The notes below the pieces were generated by a model. That model did no database searches, was not told where the DNA came from, and saw only the letters and a program-made list of their open reading frames with translations. From sequence record NC_105436.1: a stretch of 51,253 nucleotides of DNA; one strand, 5' to 3'. Shown here one piece after another: positions 10,493-50,756 of this stretch (its first letter is position 1; every line of letters starts with the position of its first letter). The position numbers and the translations under genes are program-made. The stretch is from a phage.

Positions 10493-10746
10493 TTTTTCTT
10501 CTCCTGCAATAAGCAAACATCATTGATAAAATCAGCACGGCCCTTAATGTTGCTGATGTGGAACGTCTTTTCAGCGTACAGGCCATCACCTTCAATCACG
10601 ATCATTACGCGAGTCGGTTTATTCACGGGCGCACACGAAAAGAGTGGTCGCACCGGAAGAAATTTAGTAGCCACATCCAGGTTAGCCCTGGCGGCCCTGC
10701 AAAATGCCTCCGCCAGATCCAAATCATTTTCGGTAATCACCGCCAT
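10480..10746 (-). CDS. hypothetical protein
   Basis: 88-aa ORF, overlapping start with the upstream gene stop. Confidence 0.45.
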   Translation of the reverse strand: MAVITENDLDLAEAFCRAARANLDVATKFLPVRPLFSCAPVNKPTRVMIVIEGDGLYAEKTFHISNIKGRADFINDVCLLQEKKKCWM

Positions 10747-11018
10747 TACTTCTTGATCTCCTCACTGATAAATTTCAGCACCTGACGCAAGAAAACCTCG
10801 TTGTTGATAGTCGCTGGCAATTCTTCTTTCACTTCTTGCGGCAGATAGATATTGCCGTGCCAGGTCAAGCAATCGTAGTTGATACGATAAGAGCAAAGCC
10901 ACTCGCAATCGTTATCTGCTTCCCAAATACAGAGTTGCAGAACATCGCCAAAATCTTCAACAGTCAGATCCAGACCGTGACGCTTAGCGAAATTGAAAGT
11001 GGTTTTGCTGATGTTCAT
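10746..11018 (-). CDS. hypothetical protein
   Basis: 90-aa ORF, first gene of the leftward block, with box cassette and leader upstream. Confidence 0.5.
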   Translation of the reverse strand: MNISKTTFNFAKRHGLDLTVEDFGDVLQLCIWEADNDCEWLCSYRINYDCLTWHGNIYLPQEVKEELPATINNEVFLRQVLKFISEEIKK

Positions 11019-11047
11019 TGCTATCTCCTGAGCGGTTCGTTTCGATG

Positions 11048-11097
11048 TGTGTAATGTACCCGATCAGGCGGCCTGAGTTTTAACAAAAAGTGCTATT
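11048..11097 (-). promoter_or_regulatory. box cassette (minus strand)
   Basis: Box + hairpin TCAGG/CCTGA + TACATT at 22-nt spacing + leader CATCGAAACGA. Confidence 0.55.
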
Positions 11098-11127
11098 TGA
11101 CGGTTAGCGCCAGGATTGTGATCGAAA

Positions 11128-11215
11128 TAATCAGAAGTAATCATTCGTAATCAAATCACGTCAAAATGATGATTGCCTTTGCAAATTTGATGAGAAAAGT
11201 AATCACGTTTAATCA
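11128..11215. repeat. iteron-like array of five TAATCA repeats
   Basis: TAATCA at 11128, 11138, 11148, 11200 and 11210, with 10-bp phasing within each group; in the divergent non-coding region. Confidence 0.5.
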
Positions 11216-11651
11216 TTGGTTGCAGGGGAGATAGTGAAACCTTCCCCTCTTGCCTCACTTTTCCGCCTGGCTGTCAGTGGTTGTTGTCTTTTGTTCACCC
11301 CTGTTACCGATTTCAGGCGGCGTGTTTCCGCGCGGTTTTCCGGTGTAGCGAAAACGGAAAAAACAAAGAAAATCCTCTATAATACATTGAAAATAAAGAT
11401 TATTTATTTATATATATCTATAATGTTTTCTTTTTGTTCTCACTGTTACAGTGCTTTTTGTTGGGTGTGGTGTGGTTGTGTGTTGGTATATATGGATAGT
11501 TGCGCGCGCGGCGGATTGCATATGTATATATACTTTTTCCGGCGGATTGCGTTAACAGCGTGAACAGAAAAATAACAGCCCTGAAATCAATAACTTGCGC
11601 ATGATTTTGTAGTTTTTCGATATTGGTAACGTTTTGAATACAACAAAAACA

Positions 11652-11680
11652 TTGACACGCACCAAATAGCTTTTATAATG
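11652..11680 (+). promoter_or_regulatory. consensus sigma70-type promoter (TTGACA-17-TATAAT)
   Basis: TTGACA at 11652-11657, 17-bp spacer, TATAAT at 11675-11680; 30 nt upstream of the first rightward gene. Confidence 0.7.
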
Positions 11681-11710
11681 CGCCAACAGTCAACAACCGG
11701 AGGAAAGGAA

Positions 11711-12175
11711 ATGGAACAGAAAACCACTAAGGACTATTGCGATTGGCTTCGCGAGCTTGGTCGCCGCCTGGCTAGTGGCGATATTGAAGAGTATAAAATG
11801 TCACTAATTGACCTGGCCGGAATGTTAAGCGGTGACGACTGCTACAAGATCACGCGCAGTTCATCCTACAGCCGGACCATTATCAACCGCGTTCCAGAAG
11901 TAAGGGCCGCAGGTCGGGTAAGTATCAAGGTCGAGGAAACGGAAGATGATAAATTTTACGTTTTCCGCATGGTCCACGAATCGAAAAGGAAAATCATCAC
12001 ACCCGAAGAATTGCCAGCCATCAAGGCAAGGGCGATCAAAAAGTTTGCCGATCGCTTACTGGCAGCAATCCCGAACATCGTGGACCTGGAAGGGGATAAA
12101 CTGGCTGGAGCTTGTGAGGGCGTAAGCCGCTACCAGGATATGATCCGCGAAATCATCAAAGAGGAGGAGCAATAA
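11711..12175 (+). CDS. hypothetical protein (first gene downstream of consensus sigma70 promoter)
   Basis: Start at ATG 11711 with RBS GGAGG; sits 30 nt downstream of the TTGACA-17-TATAAT promoter. Confidence 0.55.
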   Translation: MEQKTTKDYCDWLRELGRRLASGDIEEYKMSLIDLAGMLSGDDCYKITRSSSYSRTIINRVPEVRAAGRVSIKVEETEDDKFYVFRMVHESKRKIITPEELPAIKARAIKKFADRLLAAIPNIVDLEGDKLAGACEGVSRYQDMIREIIKEEEQ

Positions 12176-19807: not shown

Positions 19808-20041
19808 ATGATTAAATACAAATTAACCGTTTCTTTCCGTGATACCGTTATCCATCCTTTTCTCAAGAGCTTTGTTAAATGCTTTACGGTAGAAGCTACA
19901 GAGGATCAGCTAGACGGTGACGAAACTTGCATTTCTATTGGAAATGTTGCTTACCCGATTCACAACATTACCAGCATTAAGCGTGAGGTTGTCGCTGATG
20001 AATTACAAAGTGAAGATGACGATCCGGCGAATGGGGCGTAA
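19808..20041 (+). CDS. hypothetical protein
   Basis: 77-aa ORF. Confidence 0.45.
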   Translation: MIKYKLTVSFRDTVIHPFLKSFVKCFTVEATEDQLDGDETCISIGNVAYPIHNITSIKREVVADELQSEDDDPANGA

Positions 20042-20179
20042 TTGCCAATCATGCAAACAGGAATATGAATGCGTAGTTGATGCTCTTGATGAACTGGAAG
20101 CAGTAGCAAAAGCAAAAGAGCAATCGGGCGCTAATCCTGAAACACATCAATTTTCAATTAATCTTGTGAGGGCTTTACA

Positions 20180-20404
20180 ATGATCGCATTATCTTTCTGC
20201 ATTGGTTTTATCATGGCTATCATTATCTTTTCCGTTGTCATGCGCTTTGCTTATAAGTTCGTGATTAATAAAGGTTGGTACGCTTCTGCAATCTGGAGCG
20301 AAAAACAAAAGAAATGGCTTGTACGTGGTCAATACCTGATGATCGGTAGCAAGATCCTAAATTCCATTCGAGCCAAAGATGGGAAAGTAAAATATACAGC
20401 TTAA
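20180..20404 (+). CDS. hypothetical membrane protein
   Basis: 74 aa with N-terminal transmembrane helix. Confidence 0.45.
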   Translation: MIALSFCIGFIMAIIIFSVVMRFAYKFVINKGWYASAIWSEKQKKWLVRGQYLMIGSKILNSIRAKDGKVKYTA

Positions 20405-20410
20405 AAATCA

Positions 20411-20432
20411 CCCGCCGCACGGCGGGTTTTTT
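20411..20432 (+). terminator. rho-independent terminator candidate
   Basis: CCCGCCGCACGGCGGG hairpin + T6, between early block and terminase. Confidence 0.65.
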
Positions 20433-20482
20433 ATTGCCCGTTGTTTGGTATAATCAGGCATCTAACCAAAGGAGGATTAACA

Positions 20483-21010
20483 ATGGCTAAAAACGTTGAG
20501 CCTGCTGTAAAGGCATTAAATTTCAAAGAGTTATACAATAAAACTTATGGAGATATTGTTACGCTAAACAACCGCCACAAGTACACGCCGGAACAGGTTT
20601 TTGATATGGCGATCCGCTATTTCACTTGGGCCGAAGAGAATCACATCCAGGCGGCTGAAACTGCTTCCTTTCAGGGTGACGTGTACGAGAGCAGAGTTTA
20701 CAAGCCTCGCGTTTTCACGGTTAACGGATTCAGCTTGTATCTCGGCGTGACTGAGGCCGCCGTAAGCAAATGGCGTAAAGAGCCTGGATTCTGCGATGTG
20801 ATGGAGTTTGTTGATAAAGTAATTTACGAGCAAAAATTCCAGCTTGCGGCAAACAACATGATTAATGCTGGATTCATCGGTAAAGAGATCGGCGTAGAGA
20901 AACCAGCAACAGTGAGCGTTGAAGCGAGCGCGGCAGCTAATGCAAGCATTGACGCAGTAACTGCCGATGAGGTGAAAGAGGCTGTGATTGATATTCTGGA
21001 GCAACTTTAA
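20483..21010 (+). CDS. terminase small subunit
   Basis: Start at ATG 20483 with RBS AAAGGAGG; about 175 aa, immediately upstream of and overlapping the large terminase (TAATG). Confidence 0.6.
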   Translation: MAKNVEPAVKALNFKELYNKTYGDIVTLNNRHKYTPEQVFDMAIRYFTWAEENHIQAAETASFQGDVYESRVYKPRVFTVNGFSLYLGVTEAAVSKWRKEPGFCDVMEFVDKVIYEQKFQLAANNMINAGFIGKEIGVEKPATVSVEASAAANASIDAVTADEVKEAVIDILEQL

Positions 21011-22578
21011 TGATCATATGGGAAGATTTGACGGCGGCGCAAAAGCGAGCCATTAAAGAAATCAGTGAGCATTCATTCGAAAAGATGATCAGGATCTGGT
21101 TCCAGTTATTGCAGGGGCAAAAATTCCAGAGCAACTGGCATTTTAGCTTATTGTGCAGTGAGGTAGAGAAGATCATCAATGGAGAGTCGCAGAATGTGAT
21201 TTTCAACATTACGCCAGGTAGCGGCAAGACTGAGATTTTCTCGATCCACATGTCACCCTACGCGTCATTGAAAAGCCGGAAAGTGAGAAACCTTAACCTT
21301 TCGTTTAGTGATGGCCTTGTGCAGCAAAACAGCAACCGGATAAAGGAGATTATTGGTTCTCCTGAGTGGCAAGAGCTATGGCCTGGAAAACTGGCAAAGG
21401 CGAGCGCTAAAGATCTGATAGTCACCGAAGGCGGCAAGGTTAAATTGCAGGTTAACTCACGTTCTATTGGCGGCCAGGTAACAGGTTTGCGTGGCGGCTA
21501 TATGGATGATGGTTTTACTGGTATGCTGGTTCTTGACGATCCAGACAAGCCGGATGATATGCTTTCTAAGGTCAAGCGCGAGGCTATTCACATGCGGTTA
21601 AAAAACACAGTGCGATCGCGTCGAATGAAAGACACAACGCCGATTGTTATGGTGCAACAGCGACTACACGTTAATGATTCCACATGGTTCATGCTTAATG
21701 GCGGAATGGGTGGTATTGAGTTTAAAGTCGTGAGCATTCCTGCGCTGGTTACGAAAGAATACCGCGAAACGCTTCCTGATTGGTTGAAGCCTGAATTTGA
21801 TCGTGATGTGCTGTCAAGTAAGCCAGTGATGATAGATGGCGTTGCTCATTATTCATTTTGGCCTGCGAAGGAAAGCGCGGAGGAGTTGCTTGCATTGCGC
21901 AATGCAGATCCTTACACGTTCGCCAGCCAATACCAACAGCAACCAATCGCGCTTGGCGGGAACGTGTTTAAAACAGAGTGGTTCCAGTATTACGGCAGCG
22001 GAGAAAAGTGCGCACTACCAAAACCGGATCGCTTTGAATACACATTTATTACTGGAGATACCGCGCAGAAGGCCGGAGAGCTTAACGACTATTCAGTTTT
22101 TTGTTATTGGGGGATGTATAAGAATCGCGTTTACTTCATTGATGGCATTCGCGGAAAGTGGGAAGCGCCGGATCTTGAATTAAATTTTATTGCCTTCGTT
22201 AACCAGTGCTGGAAGCGCAATAAGGAGTGTGGCAGCTTGCGACGTATCCACATTGAAGATAAGGCCAGCGGCACGGGTTTGATTCAGGGGGCCAAAAAGA
22301 AGATCCCGATTGATATAAATCCCGTTCAGCGAAGCAATGACAAGGTGACGCGAGCAATGGACGCCGCGCCAGTAATGAGGGCCGGACGTGTGGCGCTGCC
22401 AGAAAATCACCCCATGCTGCCTGAGATACTGGCAGAGGTTGCAGCATTCACTTTTGATGATTCTCATCCCCATGATGATATTGTCGATAATATAGTTGAT
22501 GCTGTTAACGTCGAAATGAACTTGGCAGATGATCCGGTGGCAAGGATGAAAAAGCTGGCTGGTCTACGCAATAAATAG
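21010..22578 (+). CDS. terminase large subunit
   Basis: Walker A (NITPGSGKTEIFS), Walker B-like (LVLDDPDKPDD), 522 aa. Confidence 0.85.
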   Translation: MIIWEDLTAAQKRAIKEISEHSFEKMIRIWFQLLQGQKFQSNWHFSLLCSEVEKIINGESQNVIFNITPGSGKTEIFSIHMSPYASLKSRKVRNLNLSFSDGLVQQNSNRIKEIIGSPEWQELWPGKLAKASAKDLIVTEGGKVKLQVNSRSIGGQVTGLRGGYMDDGFTGMLVLDDPDKPDDMLSKVKREAIHMRLKNTVRSRRMKDTTPIVMVQQRLHVNDSTWFMLNGGMGGIEFKVVSIPALVTKEYRETLPDWLKPEFDRDVLSSKPVMIDGVAHYSFWPAKESAEELLALRNADPYTFASQYQQQPIALGGNVFKTEWFQYYGSGEKCALPKPDRFEYTFITGDTAQKAGELNDYSVFCYWGMYKNRVYFIDGIRGKWEAPDLELNFIAFVNQCWKRNKECGSLRRIHIEDKASGTGLIQGAKKKIPIDINPVQRSNDKVTRAMDAAPVMRAGRVALPENHPMLPEILAEVAAFTFDDSHPHDDIVDNIVDAVNVEMNLADDPVARMKKLAGLRNK

Positions 22579-47210: not shown

Positions 47211-48140
47211 TTATAGCAGTGATTCAGGCTTGTAGATTTTTCTTTCTACACCCTGTTTAAAATTATCGTTAACAGGCATCATTATGTCAAGCCCTCTTTC
47301 CTCTGCCGCGATTATCACATCACGATCATCTTTCCGGCATACTACGCGCATTCTTCTTTCTCCTTTATATCTATGCGCAACCATTTCAAGATTTGAAGGT
47401 GTAAAGCAGGCCCACACCTCTTGACCAGTTGATAAATGAACATGTTGGGAGTCAACCCAATCAAGGCACAAATAGATCGTCTTATCCGTGCTACCTGTTT
47501 TAACAACAGATCCGCGCGTGTAGTCGCGAGCTAAAAACCAATCCTTTCCATCCTCATCAATGAAAAGCACGTTACACATTTCATCATCCAGCCCGTCATC
47601 ATGCACCAGGTGACAAGGTAGCGCGTGAATGTATCGACCATTCTTGACGCCGCAATCATAATGACAATCTTCCGGCGGATATATCCCCTCATAAACGCTT
47701 AAGGGTGTGCGATCGAATTTTAATGTTTTTGCCATCACTTTTTCGCAGCATTCATGACTTGCCTGTTTCCCGAACGAGTAGCCAGAAGAACGTGAAGCGC
47801 GCTTGTTTGCTCTGATCCTGTAATCTTGTGGCACTTTGCCGAGAAAGCGGCCCAAAATGTTGATGGCCTCGCTGTAAGGTTCGCCAGTTAATTTCATTAA
47901 CCAACCGATCCCCGTGTCGTTACCGCATACGTTGCAGATAGCGCCGCCGTCGCCCTCTTCATTTAGCTTATCGGTCCATCTAAAACGATCCTTACCGCCG
48001 CAGTGTGGGCAAGGCTGATGCTTTTTGTTGAAAACATCGCTATGCAGTCCGCAAATGCTTTGTAGCGCTTCACGCCATAACCCCTTCATATATGGCAAAA
48101 CGTCTTCTTTCTGATAGGTCATAAAGTTTTCAGTATTCAT
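47211..48140 (-). CDS. DNA primase (zinc-ribbon type)
   Basis: Cys4 zinc ribbon CPHCGGKDRFRW ... CNVCG; start at ATG 48140. Confidence 0.6.
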   Translation of the reverse strand: MNTENFMTYQKEDVLPYMKGLWREALQSICGLHSDVFNKKHQPCPHCGGKDRFRWTDKLNEEGDGGAICNVCGNDTGIGWLMKLTGEPYSEAINILGRFLGKVPQDYRIRANKRASRSSGYSFGKQASHECCEKVMAKTLKFDRTPLSVYEGIYPPEDCHYDCGVKNGRYIHALPCHLVHDDGLDDEMCNVLFIDEDGKDWFLARDYTRGSVVKTGSTDKTIYLCLDWVDSQHVHLSTGQEVWACFTPSNLEMVAHRYKGERRMRVVCRKDDRDVIIAAEERGLDIMMPVNDNFKQGVERKIYKPESLL

Positions 48141-48152
48141 AGCAACCTCAAT

Positions 48153-48187
48153 AAAAAAGCCCAGCAAATATTATCATTTCGCTGGGC
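48153..48187 (-). terminator. terminator-like hairpin (minus strand)
   Basis: Minus strand GCCCAGC...GCTGGGC stem + T6 between the HTH gene and primase. Confidence 0.45.
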
Positions 48188-48194
48188 CTTATCA

Positions 48195-48671
48195 TTAGCT
48201 ATTCGTGCTGTTATCACCTTTGTAGAATCGTCCGCCTGGTTCGTAGTCTGAATTTTTGACTACGCGCAACATTTCGTATTTGTCGCAACGTGTAGTAAGA
48301 GGCTTGCCGTTAGAATCAAACCGCAGATCTGGACGACAAAACGAGGCGCGGTATCCTTTGCATCCATTATATTTGTAGTCGTTATGCACCTTTTGTGCTC
48401 CAGCGGCTGAAATCATACCACGCTTTCGCCACTGGTTAACGACTTGCTGAGATACGCGCAGACGTCGAGCCATAGCAGGAACACCGCCGTAATACTCGAT
48501 CAGAATGTCAAGGCGAGATTTCAGGCTTGCTTTTACCTCATCTCGCAGGATAAGAAATCCGGTTCGGTGTTTTCGTGGCTTTTTGTCTTTACCTCGTCGC
48601 GTTCCGTTGTTACCGTTAATAGTGCGCTTGTCGATCTCACCCGTAGACACTGCAATTCGTGCATCTTTCAT
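48195..48671 (-). CDS. putative HTH DNA-binding protein
   Basis: Helix-turn-helix-like segment (GGVPAMARRLRVSQQVVNQWRKRG); Cys-containing C-terminal region; divergent from the helicase gene. Confidence 0.45.
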   Translation of the reverse strand: MKDARIAVSTGEIDKRTINGNNGTRRGKDKKPRKHRTGFLILRDEVKASLKSRLDILIEYYGGVPAMARRLRVSQQVVNQWRKRGMISAAGAQKVHNDYKYNGCKGYRASFCRPDLRFDSNGKPLTTRCDKYEMLRVVKNSDYEPGGRFYKGDNSTNS

Positions 48672-48680
48672 CTAGTCACC

Positions 48681-48726
48681 TCATAGCATTTTTTGTTAAA
48701 ACAGTTTATTGTAATGAGTCTATTAT
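48681..48726 (+). promoter_or_regulatory. box cassette upstream of helicase
   Basis: CATAGCATTTTTTGTTAAAAC + 22-nt spacer + TATTAT. Confidence 0.55.
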
Positions 48727-48758
48727 ATACTCCAAATGGCATTTTTTAAAGGTTTAAG

Positions 48759-50756
48759 ATGATTCCAAATATCGAAAAACAAATATCAGCGTTAGGCGAG
48801 GCAGTAATAAAAAGCATCCAAGAGCGATTCACGGTTGGCAATATAGTGCCTTATCCTTATCAGTGCGTTGCGTATGCCGAGATCGCAAAGCGCATGAAAA
48901 ACTATGAGCATCCTTTCTTTGTTAAGGCTTCTGTGTCGGCTGGCAAAACATTGATGTTTGCAATGGTTGCGGCGCAATGCCGCAAAATGGGATTGAAAAT
49001 GATGGTCCTTGCTCGCCAGGCTGAAATTGTTGATCAGGATTCGGAAGAGATCAGCAATCTTGGCGTGCCAAACTCAATCTATTGCGCCGGACTGAAAACA
49101 AAAAGCGCATACTTTCCGATCGTAGTCGGTTCTGAGGGCACTGTAGTAAACGGATTGTTTAAGTCGTTAGGTGATTATGTTCCGCACGTTATCGGTATTG
49201 ATGAATGTCACCAGGTGGATTGGGAGGATCTCGCCGACGCGATAGAAAATAATGAATCTTACCAGCAGATGACCACTAAGAAGGATTTGCCTGTACTGAT
49301 TGGAGAAGAACAGCAATTTGATTCCAATGGCGATCCAATGTTCGGAACAGGGCGCACACAGTACACCGTAATAATCATGGAAATGATGCGCAGGTGTCGC
49401 GAGGCATACGGGCACGAATTGCGAATATTCGGTATGACTGGATCTGAGTTTCGCGGCGTTGTTCCAATACTGGTTGAAGATAAGAACAAAAAGGGATTCT
49501 GGCGTGAGCAGGTGACTAACATAGACACAAACTACTTAATCAAATTTGGTTCGGTAGTGCCAACAAATTTCGGCGACGTAGGCGACCTGGGGTATGACCT
49601 TTCAGAGTTCGAAGCCAGTAGCGAGGATGGCGTTTCAGACTTTGACGCTAAAACATTGCGCAAGATGGAAGAAAAAATCCATCAAGACGCAACAATGACA
49701 CAGAAAATCATGGCTAAAGTCCATGAGATATGCAAAGACAGGAACGGAGTTTTAGTTACATGCGCAGGGGAAAGACACTGCAAGGAGGCCGCCGCCGCAC
49801 TGCCGCAAGGCGTTGAATACAGGATCATAACTGGAAAAACTGGAGATAATCAGCGTAAAGAGTGGCTTAGGGAGGCATACGAGGGGAAAGTAAAATACAT
49901 CTTCCAGGTACAGGCGCTTACCACTGGCGTTAACGTTCCGTTTTGGGATACTTCGGTAATACTGAGAAAGATAGGATCTCTAACATTGCTTATCCAGCTT
50001 TTGGGGCGCGGTATGCGACTGCTTAAGCAATGGCACATTGAGCAGGGATTCAAGAAAAAAGATCATCTTGTATTGGATTTTGCAGGTACTATGGATGAGT
50101 TAGGGGATTTGTATTTCGATCCAATACTTGAGCAAGCGCAATTTCAAAAGAGATTTACAAACGGGAAAGAGCCTAAGACTTGCCCGATATGTGGAACGCT
50201 AAACAGCTTTTACGCTCGCCGATGTATGCACGTAGACGATAACGGGAAACGATGTGAGCATTTTTGGACTTACAGAATTTGCGAGGACCAGGTAGATCCG
50301 AGAACGAAAAAGATAATCAAGCGCGGTTGCGGAACAAAAAACGACGTAGTGGCGAGAGTATGCCGTTGTTGCGATATTTCTCTTGTCGATCCTAACGAGA
50401 AGTTAAGCGGCAAGCACTACACAAAAAACGATTGGTGCAACGTTAAATCTTTCCGCGTTGATATGACGAAAAACCAGAAAGGAATTGTTTTTTGCTATGA
50501 GCTTGAGGCAAACGGCGACACGTTCAAGGCATACGAAAGATTTTTCCCTGAGTCAGAAAGCAACATTTGCCGGACGATATGGAGAAAAATAGCATTGCAG
50601 CACATACCGGATCGCAAGATTGCTGGTATGGTGGCGAGCTATAGAAATGCGCGTAAAATAATGTCATACGCTCATCACATCATGCCTCCTGTACGCGTAA
50701 CGCATCGCAAGAACGGCAAAGGTGAGGATAACATTGCAAAACGGGAGTTTGTTTAA
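48759..50756 (+). CDS. SF2 helicase (DEAH-type) with C-terminal zinc ribbon
   Basis: Walker A (SVSAGKT), DEAH-like box (IGIDECHQ), helicase C-domain-like motifs, CxxC...C...C cluster. Confidence 0.75.
   Translation: MIPNIEKQISALGEAVIKSIQERFTVGNIVPYPYQCVAYAEIAKRMKNYEHPFFVKASVSAGKTLMFAMVAAQCRKMGLKMMVLARQAEIVDQDSEEISNLGVPNSIYCAGLKTKSAYFPIVVGSEGTVVNGLFKSLGDYVPHVIGIDECHQVDWEDLADAIENNESYQQMTTKKDLPVLIGEEQQFDSNGDPMFGTGRTQYTVIIMEMMRRCREAYGHELRIFGMTGSEFRGVVPILVEDKNKKGFWREQVTNIDTNYLIKFGSVVPTNFGDVGDLGYDLSEFEASSEDGVSDFDAKTLRKMEEKIHQDATMTQKIMAKVHEICKDRNGVLVTCAGERHCKEAAAALPQGVEYRIITGKTGDNQRKEWLREAYEGKVKYIFQVQALTTGVNVPFWDTSVILRKIGSLTLLIQLLGRGMRLLKQWHIEQGFKKKDHLVLDFAGTMDELGDLYFDPILEQAQFQKRFTNGKEPKTCPICGTLNSFYARRCMHVDDNGKRCEHFWTYRICEDQVDPRTKKIIKRGCGTKNDVVARVCRCCDISLVDPNEKLSGKHYTKNDWCNVKSFRVDMTKNQKGIVFCYELEANGDTFKAYERFFPESESNICRTIWRKIALQHIPDRKIAGMVASYRNARKIMSYAHHIMPPVRVTHRKNGKGEDNIAKREFV

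What the first reader, a model, noticed from the sequence alone, without database searches (positions are those of the whole stretch)
11128..11215. Helically phased TAATCA iterons in the divergent early control region
Five TAATCA repeats in two groups, spaced 10 bp apart within each group (11128, 11138, 11148; then 11200, 11210), lie between the leftward and rightward early blocks, with inverted repeats nearby at 11220-11245 and 11298-11330. Phased iterons usually mark a replication origin or a multi-site operator.
Basis: seen in the sequence. Interest (0 to 1): 0.5.

Follow-up and report, generated by a model that had tools for sequence, protein, structure and literature searches.

The report
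Phased repeats beside phage packaging cut
The five evenly spaced TAATCA repeats are real and conserved, but they sit 19-106 bases from where this T1-like phage's DNA is most likely cut to start packaging, so they are more likely the packaging enzyme's docking site than a replication origin.

Summary
TAATCA occurs at 11128, 11138, 11148, 11200 and 11210 (+), and no shuffle gave more than three copies in 88 bp. There is also an in-phase inverted copy (TGATTG, 11170) and a degenerate one (AAATCA, 11153).

The window is a T1-like coliphage (Drexlerviridae, Warwickvirus). The array lies in the 659-bp divergent intergenic region and is ≥95% identical in 60 phage records.

The interpretation needs changing. 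In T1, TLS and Chapo this same intergenic region holds the pac site. Chapo's pac cut, mapped from read ends, falls at GGGGGGATTTA|GTGTTACC. The records of XY3 (same TAATCA type) and PHB17 break at the homologous junction. That puts the predicted cut at window 11233|11234, 18 bp right of the last repeat, with all repeats on one helical face.

Other lineages carry different phased short repeats at this position, often with an AATCA/TGATT core. The same 60 records carry both the array and this small-terminase allele, a P22 gp3 homologue.

Most likely (about 0.5) the array is the small-terminase recognition part of the pac site. An operator (0.2) or origin iterons (0.1) are not excluded. No binding was shown. 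Interest is modest.

The parts
11128..11153 (+). Distal cluster: three exact TAATCA hexamers starting at 11128, 11138 and 11148, at 10-bp spacing. They lie 106 to 81 bp left of the predicted pac cut.
   Evidence: Invariant in 9 compared TAATCA-type sequences. Phase relative to the cut is 0.10-0.19 turn.
11153..11158 (+). Degenerate copy AAATCA, overlapping the end of the third repeat and out of helical phase (7.71 turns from the cut).
   Evidence: Position 11158 varies among relatives.
11170..11175 (-). Inverted imperfect copy: TGATTG on the + strand, CAATCA on the - strand. It is in phase with the direct copies (6.1 turns from the cut). It sits inside a 1-mismatch IHF-like match at 11162-11174 (-).
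   Evidence: CAATCA is also the only variant seen inside a hexamer in relatives (EC167, 11200 T>C).
11200..11215 (+). Proximal cluster: two exact TAATCA hexamers starting at 11200 and 11210, lying 34 to 19 bp left of the predicted cut. The second is partly kept even in TATTCC-type relatives: WaterSpirit has the palindrome TGATTAATCA, and Hanrivervirus locus L059 has TAATCAGGTGATTA (phage vojen reads TAATCAGGTGATTAAC).
11225..11241 (+). Predicted pac cleavage motif GGGGAGATA|GTGAAACC, with the cut between 11233 and 11234. Packaging is inferred to proceed rightward.
   Evidence: The Chapo pac cut mapped from read ends is at GGGGGGATTTA|GTGTTACC (PMC7471380; sequence). The XY3 record ends ...GGGGAGATA and starts GTGAAACC. 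The PHB17 record ends GAGGGGAATC and starts GTGAAACC. T1's terminal repeat is annotated as 1-2800, running rightward from this region.
11078..11096 (-). The last leftward copy of the T1-family 21-nt direct repeat ATAGCACTTTTTGTTAAAA, a promoter-associated element. A candidate -10 (TACATT on the - strand) lies at 11058-11053. Together these form the putative leftward promoter, of which the array lies upstream.
   Evidence: 20 copies in the window against 0.23 expected. The element is described for TLS in PMC11447400. The -10 varies as TACATT, CATAAT or TATAGT in relatives. The promoter assignment is an inference.
20483..21010 (+). Small terminase (TerS), 175 aa, P22 gp3 family. It is the candidate protein that reads the array. 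TerL follows at 21010-22578.
   Evidence: Pfam GP3_package E = 3.8e-11. PDB 3P9A (P22 gp3) E = 1.7e-15. The allele is found in the same 60 records that carry the array.
11652..11679 (+). Rightward early promoter, a perfect sigma-70 consensus (TTGACA-16-TATAAT) directly before the first rightward gene. It bounds the control region and is not part of the array.

Best explanation
The TAATCA array is the recognition part of the phage's pac site, the place where headful DNA packaging starts.

Proposed mechanism (inferred, not shown): the small terminase, a P22-gp3-type ring oligomer encoded at 20483-21010, binds the phased hexamers. These comprise three distal, one inverted and two proximal copies, all on one face of the helix over about 90 bp. 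Binding bends or wraps the DNA and positions the large terminase to cut once at GGGGAGATA|GTGAAACC (11233|11234). DNA to the right of the cut is then threaded into the capsid. The array stays on the non-packaged side of that first cut.

Shown here: the repeats and their phasing, their conservation, their uniqueness in the genome, and their position next to the junction homologous to a mapped pac cut.

Inferred: the cut position in this particular genome, and that TerS is the protein that binds.
For: 1. Location. In T1 the annotated terminal repeat (1-2800) starts inside the homologous divergent intergenic region. The TLS pac site was restriction-mapped to the same region, and its record starts inside a run of TGATTG/TGATTT/TGATTA repeats. 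Chapo's pac cut was mapped from about 20% of the reads in that region sharing identical ends, at record position 68/69, which reads GGGGGGATTTA|GTGTTACC.

2. Exact junction. The XY3 record, which carries the same TAATCA-type region at 97.8% identity, is broken exactly at GGGGAGATA|GTGAAACC, which corresponds to window 11233|11234. The PHB17 record, from a different genus, is broken at GAGGGGAATC|GTGAAACC.

3. Geometry. The array ends 18 bp from that junction. The five hexamers and the inverted copy lie at 10.10, 9.14, 8.19, 6.10, 3.24 and 2.29 helical turns from it, so all are within 0.2 turn of one face.

4. Uniqueness. It is the only such cluster in the 51-kb genome, as expected for a pac site.

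5. Recurrence. In most other Drexlerviridae lineages the roughly 130 bp between the last leftward promoter element and the cut motif is also filled with short repeats. These often have the AATCA/TGATT core and 10-bp spacing. Counts against expectation: window 7 vs 0.67, L080 7 vs 0.59, L100 11 vs 1.09, T1 5 vs 0.79.

6. Co-distribution. The 60 phage records with the array (≥95% identity) are exactly the 60 with this TerS allele. In WaterSpirit, which lacks the distal triplet, TerS is only 66% identical while the adjacent TerL is 91%. The differences include the helix TEAAVSKWRKE versus SDSNIQRLRKL.

7. Other candidates. Other proteins that follow the same presence pattern have no recognisable DNA-binding domain. 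The two flanking genes do not follow it.

8. Variation. Among 9 array-bearing sequences, 13 sites vary in 144 nt, but only one lies inside a hexamer.
Against: No binding, cleavage or read-end data exist for this genome.

The cut position rests on homology and on where other people's records begin. XY3 and PHB17 may have been oriented after one another, so they are not certainly independent.

The 60/60 co-distribution is largely a clade signal. The core Warwickvirus group also shares TerL at ≥95% in 54 records.

Across the family the TerS tree does not sort by repeat type. Window versus Hanrivervirus TerS is 74% identical although the distal repeats differ. T1, Hanrivervirus and WaterSpirit share TATTCCA/TGGAATA although their TerS proteins are only 53-67% identical.

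The core motif faces the opposite way in T1, TLS and L076-L082 (TGATTG on the + strand) compared with the window (TAATCA on the + strand).

Three lineages (L062, L066, L098) show no enrichment of the core.

The closest solved relative, P22 gp3, uses a single 22-bp asymmetric site inside its own gene, not a repeat array (P22 pac sequence as quoted in PMC11447400).
Confidence: 0.5

Rival explanations
1. The array is a multi-site operator or upstream enhancer for early transcription. A phage regulator, or a host factor, would bind the phased sites and control the leftward early promoter (the 21-mer element at 11078-11096) or transcription across the region. The phage candidate is the weak Cro/YdaS-like HTH protein at 48195-48671.
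For: The array lies directly upstream of the last leftward 21-mer promoter element, about 82-170 bp from the putative start. Phased direct repeats are typical of cooperative regulator binding. A Cro-like HTH protein is encoded in the genome; it is 100% identical in EC167 (array present) and 78% in WaterSpirit (distal triplet absent). In T1, Hanrivervirus and WaterSpirit the equivalent position holds an inverted-repeat pair (TATTCCA ... TGGAATA) that looks like a dimer operator, and it persists despite divergent TerS.
Against: The array overlaps no -35 or -10 element. The other 19 copies of the same promoter element in the genome have no such array. The same 90-aa gene and its 21-mer occur in other phages with no array behind them (L013, L022, L027), so the array goes with the pac region rather than with the promoter. 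No TAATCA or TATTCC motif occurs in the regulator's own divergent promoter region in the window, T1, WaterSpirit, EC167 or Chapo. A single site in the genome would be unusual for a general regulator.
Confidence: 0.2
2. The array consists of iterons of the phage replication origin. An initiator would bind the phased repeats and open nearby DNA.
For: The repeats are direct and helically phased, lie in the only large non-coding region, and sit between divergent early transcription units. The origin of T1-like phages is unknown (PMC11447400; PMC7718038). Cumulative GC skew has its minimum here.
Against: The GC skew flips at every change of gene orientation, so it carries no information here. There is no DnaA box (the best match has one mismatch and lies outside the array), and only two GATC sites occur in the whole region. 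No AT-rich unwinding element abuts the array; the AT-rich core at 11360-11425 lies beyond the predicted cut and a GC-rich stretch. No Rep or initiator gene was found, although only 15 ORFs were scanned against Pfam. Neither flanking gene follows the repeat type. A second repeat family in the right half, flanking the AT-rich core, is a better origin candidate.
Confidence: 0.1
3. The repeats have no sequence-specific reader. They would be a by-product of local duplication (the 24-nt unit copied 72 bp away), or only give the DNA a bend or host architectural-protein sites (IHF/Fis-like) that help whatever happens at the cut.
For: The two clusters form a 75%-identical duplicated 24-nt unit. A 1-mismatch IHF-like site (11162-11174) and A/T tracts lie between the clusters. 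The region is 97-100% identical in all 60 records, so purifying selection on the hexamers themselves cannot be demonstrated statistically (1 of 13 variable sites in hexamers against about 2.7 expected).
Against: The hexamers are exact while the spacers between them differ. Independent lineages have built phased repeats of different sequence at the same place. That is hard to explain without a reader protein.
Confidence: 0.08

Closest known systems
pac region of phages T1, TLS and Chapo (Drexlerviridae)
   Same: Same family and same genome position: the divergent intergenic region between the leftward and rightward early blocks. They share the cut motif GGGG-N4-5|GTGWWACC. All have short repeats just left of the cut.
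   Different: None of the papers read here (PMC11447400, PMC7471380, PMC7718038, PMC8421802, PMC5238451, PMC13164509) defines recognition elements. The TLS authors assigned pac by a 6-bp resemblance to P22. T1 and TLS carry TGATTG-type repeats in the opposite orientation. T1 also has a TATTCCA/TGGAATA pair where the window has its TAATCA triplet.
Phage P1 pac site
   Same: From memory, not tested here: P1 has clusters of a repeated hexamer (TGATCA/G) near a short cleavage region, read by the recognition subunit of its packaging enzyme with IHF help. The resemblance is a multi-hexamer, two-cluster layout about 100-160 bp long.
   Different: In P1 the clusters flank the cut on both sides and contain GATC, so Dam methylation controls cutting. 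Here all copies lie on one side of the predicted cut. The hexamers contain no GATC, and only one GATC (11120) is nearby. The P1 enzyme is unrelated to P22 gp3-type TerS.
Phage SPP1 pacL / lambda cosB
   Same: From memory: these are repeated, phased small-terminase binding boxes beside the cut, on intrinsically bent DNA. SPP1 pacL lies on the non-encapsidated side, as this array does.
   Different: The terminase families and box sequences differ. SPP1 also has a pacR on the packaged side, whereas no TAATCA-like repeat occurs in the 100 bp right of the predicted cut here.
Phage P22 pac / gp3
   Same: The small terminase here is a clear homologue of P22 gp3 (PDB 3P9A, E = 1.7e-15; Pfam GP3_package).
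   Different: P22 pac is a single asymmetric 22-bp sequence inside gene 3 (as quoted in PMC11447400). Here the predicted site is intergenic, 9.2 kb from the TerS gene, and repeat-based.
Plasmid/phage origin iterons (e.g. lambda ori, P4 ori)
   Same: Direct repeats at helical spacing in a non-coding control region.
   Different: There is no adjacent unwinding element and no DnaA box, and no cognate initiator was found among the ORFs scanned.

Membership tests
pac site of a headful-packaging phage | Lies at or next to the DNA end made by the first packaging cut | tested here: met
   Met by homology only. The array ends 18 bp from the junction homologous to Chapo's read-end-mapped cut, and from the XY3 and PHB17 record breaks. 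There are no read-end data for this genome.
pac site of a headful-packaging phage | The phage encodes a headful-type terminase (TerS and TerL) and belongs to a group with terminally redundant, partly permuted DNA | tested here: met
   TerS is a GP3_package / P22 gp3 homologue, with TerL adjacent. Headful packaging of T1, TLS and Chapo is reported in PMC11447400 and PMC7471380.
pac site of a headful-packaging phage | Single preferred site per genome | tested here: met
   There is only one TAATCA cluster in 51,253 bases. Elsewhere TAATCA shows no cluster of more than two copies in 88 bp.
pac site of a headful-packaging phage | Bound by the small terminase and required for packaging initiation | not testable with these tools
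   This needs footprinting or EMSA, and plasmid-transduction or mutant-phage assays.
pac site of a headful-packaging phage | Site specificity changes together with the small terminase | tested here: inconclusive
   The 60 records with the array are the same 60 with this TerS allele. WaterSpirit TerS is 66% identical against TerL 91%. Family-wide, however, the TerS tree does not sort by repeat type.
Replication-origin iterons | Several direct repeats at helical spacing | tested here: met
   10-bp spacing within clusters; 72 bp between clusters.
Replication-origin iterons | Adjacent AT-rich unwinding element and/or DnaA boxes | tested here: not met
   No DnaA box is present. The nearest AT-rich core (11360-11425) is about 145 bp away, across the predicted cut and a GC-rich segment.
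Replication-origin iterons | Cognate initiator gene that follows the repeat type | tested here: not met
   No Rep-like domain was found among the 15 ORFs scanned. The flanking genes do not follow the repeat type: the 90-aa protein is 97% identical in WaterSpirit, and DUF7174 is 29% identical in EC167, which has the array.
Replication-origin iterons | Origin activity | not testable with these tools
   This needs marker-frequency or 2D-gel mapping.
Multi-site transcriptional operator | Sites overlap or abut the -35/-10 elements of a promoter | tested here: not met
   The array is about 440 bp from the sigma-70 consensus promoter and 82-170 bp upstream of the putative leftward start.
Multi-site transcriptional operator | Cognate regulator identified | tested here: inconclusive
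   A weak Cro/YdaS-like HTH protein exists. Its own promoter region has no TAATCA.
P1-type pac architecture | Hexamer clusters on both sides of the cut, containing Dam (GATC) sites | tested here: not met
   All copies are left of the predicted cut, and the hexamers lack GATC. The P1 features are recalled from memory.

The most novel reading that the evidence does not exclude
Drexlerviridae pac sites may be modular arrays of helically phased 5-6-bp elements (AATCA/TGATT core). Their number, orientation and exact sequence would be rebuilt lineage by lineage, and they would be read by a P22-gp3-type small-terminase ring that wraps about 90 bp and directs one cut at GGGG-N4-5|GTGWWACC. That would give the classical generalised transducer T1 and its relatives a defined, swappable packaging signal. 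The same array, sitting directly upstream of the last leftward early promoter, might also shut that promoter off once terminase accumulates.
Probability: 0.35. Interest if true: 0.45.

Novelty: new member of a known kind. Interest (0 to 1): 0.33.

Why it matters
T1-like phages are common laboratory contaminants, generalised transducers and therapy candidates. Their packaging signal is known only as a map position; the 2024 TLS paper still assigned it by a 6-bp resemblance to P22.

A concrete candidate recognition array plus a conserved cut motif would make pac specificity in this family directly testable. The tests would be plasmid transduction, TerS footprinting and array swaps between lineages. 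It would also help set biologically meaningful start coordinates for the many Drexlerviridae genome records, which are currently opened at arbitrary places.

It also cautions against reading every phased repeat in a phage control region as an origin. The result is not surprising in kind, because repeat-based terminase sites are well known in P1, SPP1 and lambda.

Tried and rejected
- **Rfam** on 10900-11800 at a permissive threshold gave only two chance snoRNA matches. No RNA element.
Rejected as meaningful structures.
- **GC skew as an origin marker** follows gene orientation at every strand switch. Uninformative.
- **DnaA, IHF and GATC scans** found no DnaA box, one 1-mismatch IHF-like site and two GATC sites.
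- **TerS tree against repeat type** across 19 lineages showed no clean partition. Covariation could not be used as proof.
- **Window ORFs against WaterSpirit, EC167, T1 and Chapo**: several proteins share the pattern 'high in EC167, low in WaterSpirit'. Apart from TerS, none has a recognisable DNA-binding domain.
- **Cro-like regulator**: its own promoter region contains neither TAATCA nor TATTCC in five phages.
- **AlphaFold2 of the adjacent DUF7174 protein** without an alignment gave pLDDT 47.5, which is unusable. It also has no PDB relative.
- **IMG/VR scan for TAATCA-N4-TAATCA-N4-TAATCA** returned at least 120 contigs, several holding runs of matches 30 bp apart. The loci were not examined further. 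Uninformative.
- **Literature**: I found no paper that defines T1-family pac recognition sequences. The Rtp genome paper is not held. I had no access to Roberts et al. 2004 on T1 or to the 1980s T1 pac papers, so an earlier description of these repeats cannot be excluded.
- **First Python simulation** timed out and was redone.

Full report
**1. What the window is.** The region 10700-11700 is 97-99.5% identical to many Escherichia phages of Drexlerviridae, Tempevirinae, genus Warwickvirus, such as JLBYU19, Poky, SECphi27, tonnikala and FritzSarasin. These are virulent T1-like siphoviruses. The 51,253-base window is about the size of a whole genome of this type. Its gene order matches T1:
- a leftward block of small early genes ends at 11018;
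- a rightward block starts at 11678 and runs through TerS (20483-21010), TerL (21010-22578) and the structural genes;
- replication genes lie near the far end, namely primase 47211-48167, a Cro-like HTH protein 48195-48671 and a helicase 48759-50756.

**2. The observation.** TAATCA occurs on the + strand at 11128, 11138, 11148, 11200 and 11210.
- The window holds 33 + strand copies, so five in 88 bp has a Poisson expectation of about 1e-5.
- In 1000 block shuffles the largest cluster was three.
- The only other hexamers reaching four or five copies in 88 bp all fall inside open reading frames.
- There is also a degenerate AAATCA (11153) and an inverted TGATTG (11170).
- The two groups form a duplicated 24-nt double unit 72 bp apart.
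- No ORF of 40 aa or more covers the array, and Rfam finds nothing.
- The nearby inverted repeats exist but fold no better than shuffled sequence.

**3. Surroundings.** The 659-bp intergenic region has four recognisable parts.
- **11019-11100:** a leader and the last leftward copy of a 19-21-nt element, ATAGCACTTTTTGTTAAAA (11078-11096, - strand). The window has 20 copies against 0.23 expected, mostly in the direction of transcription. This is the direct repeat described for TLS and noted in T1 and Rtp (PMC11447400). Downstream of it, relatives show TACATT, CATAAT or TATAGT at a fixed place, a likely -10.
- **11125-11220:** the TAATCA array.
- **11225-11241:** GGGGAGATAGTGAAACC.
- **About 11280-11650:** a second repeat family (a 25-nt element at 11282-11307 and 11424-11449, and inverted at 11553-11577) around an AT-rich core. 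It ends at a perfect sigma-70 consensus promoter at 11652-11679.

**4. Relatives.** An alignment of eight phages shows the array is virtually identical in FritzSarasin, Sip, JK16 and EC167, even though the last three have a quite different right half of the intergenic region.
- WaterSpirit (same genus) and the Hanriverviruses vojen and 2019SD1 have conserved flanks. In place of the distal triplet they carry TATTCCA twice (10 bp apart) followed by (G)GAATAA twice in inverted orientation.
- Near the proximal pair they keep TAATCA-like palindromes: TGATTAATCA in WaterSpirit and TAATCAGGTGATTA in Hanrivervirus locus L059.
- A survey of IMG/VR loci and GenBank records shows that in nearly every Drexlerviridae lineage the roughly 130 bp after the last leftward promoter element is packed with short lineage-specific repeats.
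- The AATCA/TGATT core is enriched there in most lineages: window 7 against 0.67 expected; T1 5 against 0.79; L076/L080/L082 6-7 against about 0.55, with 10-bp spacing; L100 11 against 1.09. It is not enriched in L062, L066 or L098.
- So the position is a repeat-bearing module whose sequence is rebuilt over time. The array is also in a different orientation in T1 and TLS than here.

**5. This is the pac region.**
- In the T1 reference record, position 1 is the start of the annotated 2800-bp terminal repeat. It lies inside the homologous intergenic region, 162 bp after the start codon of the last leftward gene.
- The TLS record also starts there, inside a run of TGATTG/TGATTT/TGATTA. Its authors mapped pac by restriction fragments and then chose the exact base by a 6-bp resemblance to P22.
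- For Chapo, the pac cut was placed between record positions 68 and 69, because about 20% of the reads in that region shared identical ends there (PMC7471380). The sequence reads GAGAGGGGGGATTTA|GTGTTACCC.
- The window has GCAGGGGAGATA|GTGAAACC at the matching place.
- The XY3 record, one of the 60 TAATCA-type phages, ends ...TTGCAGGGGAGATA and begins GTGAAACCTTCCCC. That is window 11233|11234.
- The PHB17 record (genus Changchunvirus) ends GAGGGGAATC and begins GTGAAACC.

XY3 and PHB17 may have been oriented after one another, so I count them as one or two supports rather than two. Even so, agreement to the base with the Chapo experiment is unlikely by chance.

I therefore place the first packaging cut at 11233|11234, with packaging proceeding rightward as in T1. 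The array then spans -106 to -19 on the non-packaged side. At 10.5 bp per turn, the five hexamers and the inverted copy lie at 10.10, 9.14, 8.19, 6.10, 3.24 and 2.29 turns from the cut, all on one face. The degenerate AAATCA lies at 7.71 turns and is out of phase.

**6. Who reads it?** The small terminase is a clear homologue of P22 gp3 (Pfam GP3_package; PDB 3P9A E = 1.7e-15).
- Exactly 60 records carry the 163-bp array region at ≥95% identity, exactly 60 carry this TerS gene at ≥95%, and the two lists are identical. This is partly a clade effect, because TerL is ≥95% in 54 records.
- The genes between the array and TerS are mosaic within the clade.
- In WaterSpirit, TerS is only 66% identical while the adjacent TerL is 91%. 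The differences include a helix-like segment, TEAAVSKWRKE against SDSNIQRLRKL.
- The neighbouring genes do not follow the repeat type. The 90-aa leftward protein is 97% identical in WaterSpirit, and the DUF7174 protein is 29% identical in array-bearing EC167.
- Other proteins with the same pattern as TerS have no recognisable DNA-binding domain.
- The Cro-like protein cannot be excluded, but its own promoter region has no such motif.

Against a simple TerS-code picture, the TerS tree does not sort by repeat type across the family. The TATTCCA/TGGAATA pair persists in T1, Hanrivervirus and WaterSpirit despite TerS identities of only 53-67%. That pair may be read by something else, and in the window lineage it was replaced by more TAATCA copies.

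**7. Origin and operator readings.**
- I found no DnaA box, only two GATC sites in the region and no abutting AT-rich element.
- No initiator gene was found among the 15 ORFs scanned.
- GC skew merely mirrors gene orientation.
- The origin of T1-like phages is reported as not found, so this reading cannot be excluded. The right-half repeat family around the AT-rich core looks more origin-like or operator-like than the TAATCA array. Its type (GTTC(A/G)C against GTTATC) changes together with the adjacent DUF7174 gene.
- As an operator, the array overlaps no promoter hexamers.
- The other 19 copies of the promoter element lack such an array.
- The same leftward gene and promoter element occur in other phages without it.

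**8. Verdict.** The repeats are real and almost certainly functional. The best-supported reading is that they form the recognition half of the pac site for a P22-gp3-type small terminase (confidence about 0.5). An early-promoter operator or enhancer (0.2), origin iterons (0.1) and a purely architectural or duplicative origin (0.08) are the rivals.

In kind this is familiar, since P1 pac, SPP1 pacL and lambda cosB are repeat-based terminase sites. I therefore file it as a new member of a known kind. The specific elements and the cut motif GGGG-N4-5|GTGWWACC are not described in any paper I could read, but I had no access to the 2004 T1 genome paper or the 1980s T1 pac papers. Interest is modest (0.33).

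Noticed in passing
window 11078-11096 (-) and 19 other sites (e.g. 7069, 9268, 9774, 12432, 12895, 14113, 15346, 18357, 51172): The 19-nt core ATAGCACnnnTTGnTAAAA occurs 20 times against 0.23 expected, mostly in the direction of transcription. It is the T1-family direct repeat described for TLS (PMC11447400), whose role as promoter, enhancer or 'stoperator' is still open. Two copies (27199 and 30949, - strand) face against the structural genes.
   Followed up: partly
L030, L031, L033 (IMG/VR loci, about 60-90 bp upstream of the homologue of window ORF 10746-11018): The same element, in the palindromic form TAGCA-N5-TGCTA (GTTTTAGCAAAAAGTGCTATT or GTTTTAGCAATTCGTGCTATT), is conserved upstream of the 90-aa Phi92_gp242-like gene even in GC-rich, apparently unrelated phage contigs. 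In the window it is centred about 42 bp upstream of the putative start, the usual place for a class II activator site.
   Followed up: no
window 11282-11307 (+), 11424-11449 (+), 11553-11577 (inverted); weaker inverted copies around 11357-11372 and 11626-11653: A second repeat family, TGTTnnCTTTTGTTC(A/T)CnnCTGTTA, brackets an AT-rich core (11360-11425). That core is the most widely conserved non-coding stretch across Drexlerviridae genera. EC167, Sip, JK16 and Hanrivervirus have TGTTATC-type repeats instead (four phased copies in 2019SD1 and L059). The type changes together with the adjacent DUF7174 gene (68% identity in WaterSpirit, 29% in EC167). This is a better candidate than the TAATCA array for an origin or for the operator of the rightward promoter.
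   Followed up: partly
window 11652-11679 (+): A perfect sigma-70 consensus promoter (TTGACA, 16 bp, TATAAT) lies immediately before the first rightward gene. Its -35 overlaps the last inverted copy of the right-half repeat.
   Followed up: no
window 19808-21010 compared with WaterSpirit (L112/L113) and EC167 (L114): TerS and the three small genes upstream of it form a mosaic patch. In WaterSpirit they are 70, 67, 40 and 66% identical while TerL next door is 91%. In EC167 the three small genes are absent but TerS is 99% identical. This indicates recombination junctions at both ends of TerS.
   Followed up: partly
L052 (T1) 103-160: T1 has a second leftward-facing copy of the 21-mer about 100 bp to the right of the pac region. 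It is followed by CGATTACGATTACGCTTGATTGCGTGTTAATCATTG, which is more GATTA-type repeats. If active it would drive transcription leftward across the pac cut. The window has no such second copy.
   Followed up: no
L115 (TLS NC_009540) 1-45: The TLS record starts at AGATTT, chosen by its authors for resemblance to P22 pac. That hexamer sits inside a run of TGATTG/TGATTT/TGATTA repeats, so it may simply be part of the repeat array rather than a P22-like signal. TLS lacks an obvious GGGG...GTGWWACC motif in the first 120 bases.
   Followed up: no
GenBank records MG0656xx ('Campylobacter phage' C4, A112a, A121, A131, A119, A15a, A14a ...): Between 15 and 21 records labelled Campylobacter jejuni phages match this T1-like coliphage region, TerS and TerL at 74-92% nucleotide identity. 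Most are unannotated and some are fragments. This may be contamination of phage preparations with T1-like coliphages or mislabelling.
   Followed up: no
record NC_048206.1 / LR027388.1 (mar001J1), TerL region: The TerL match drops to 87.5%, and an HNH endonuclease is annotated under the match. This suggests a homing-endonuclease insertion in or next to TerL in that relative.
   Followed up: no
window 48683-48740 and the homologous regions of T1, WaterSpirit, EC167 and Chapo: In the regulator-helicase divergent region the 21-mer is followed after about 19 nt by a conserved TATTAT. This gives a clean example of the element's fixed distance to a -10-like hexamer. The TTGnTA inside the element is 22 nt from that hexamer, too far to serve as a normal -35.
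   Followed up: no
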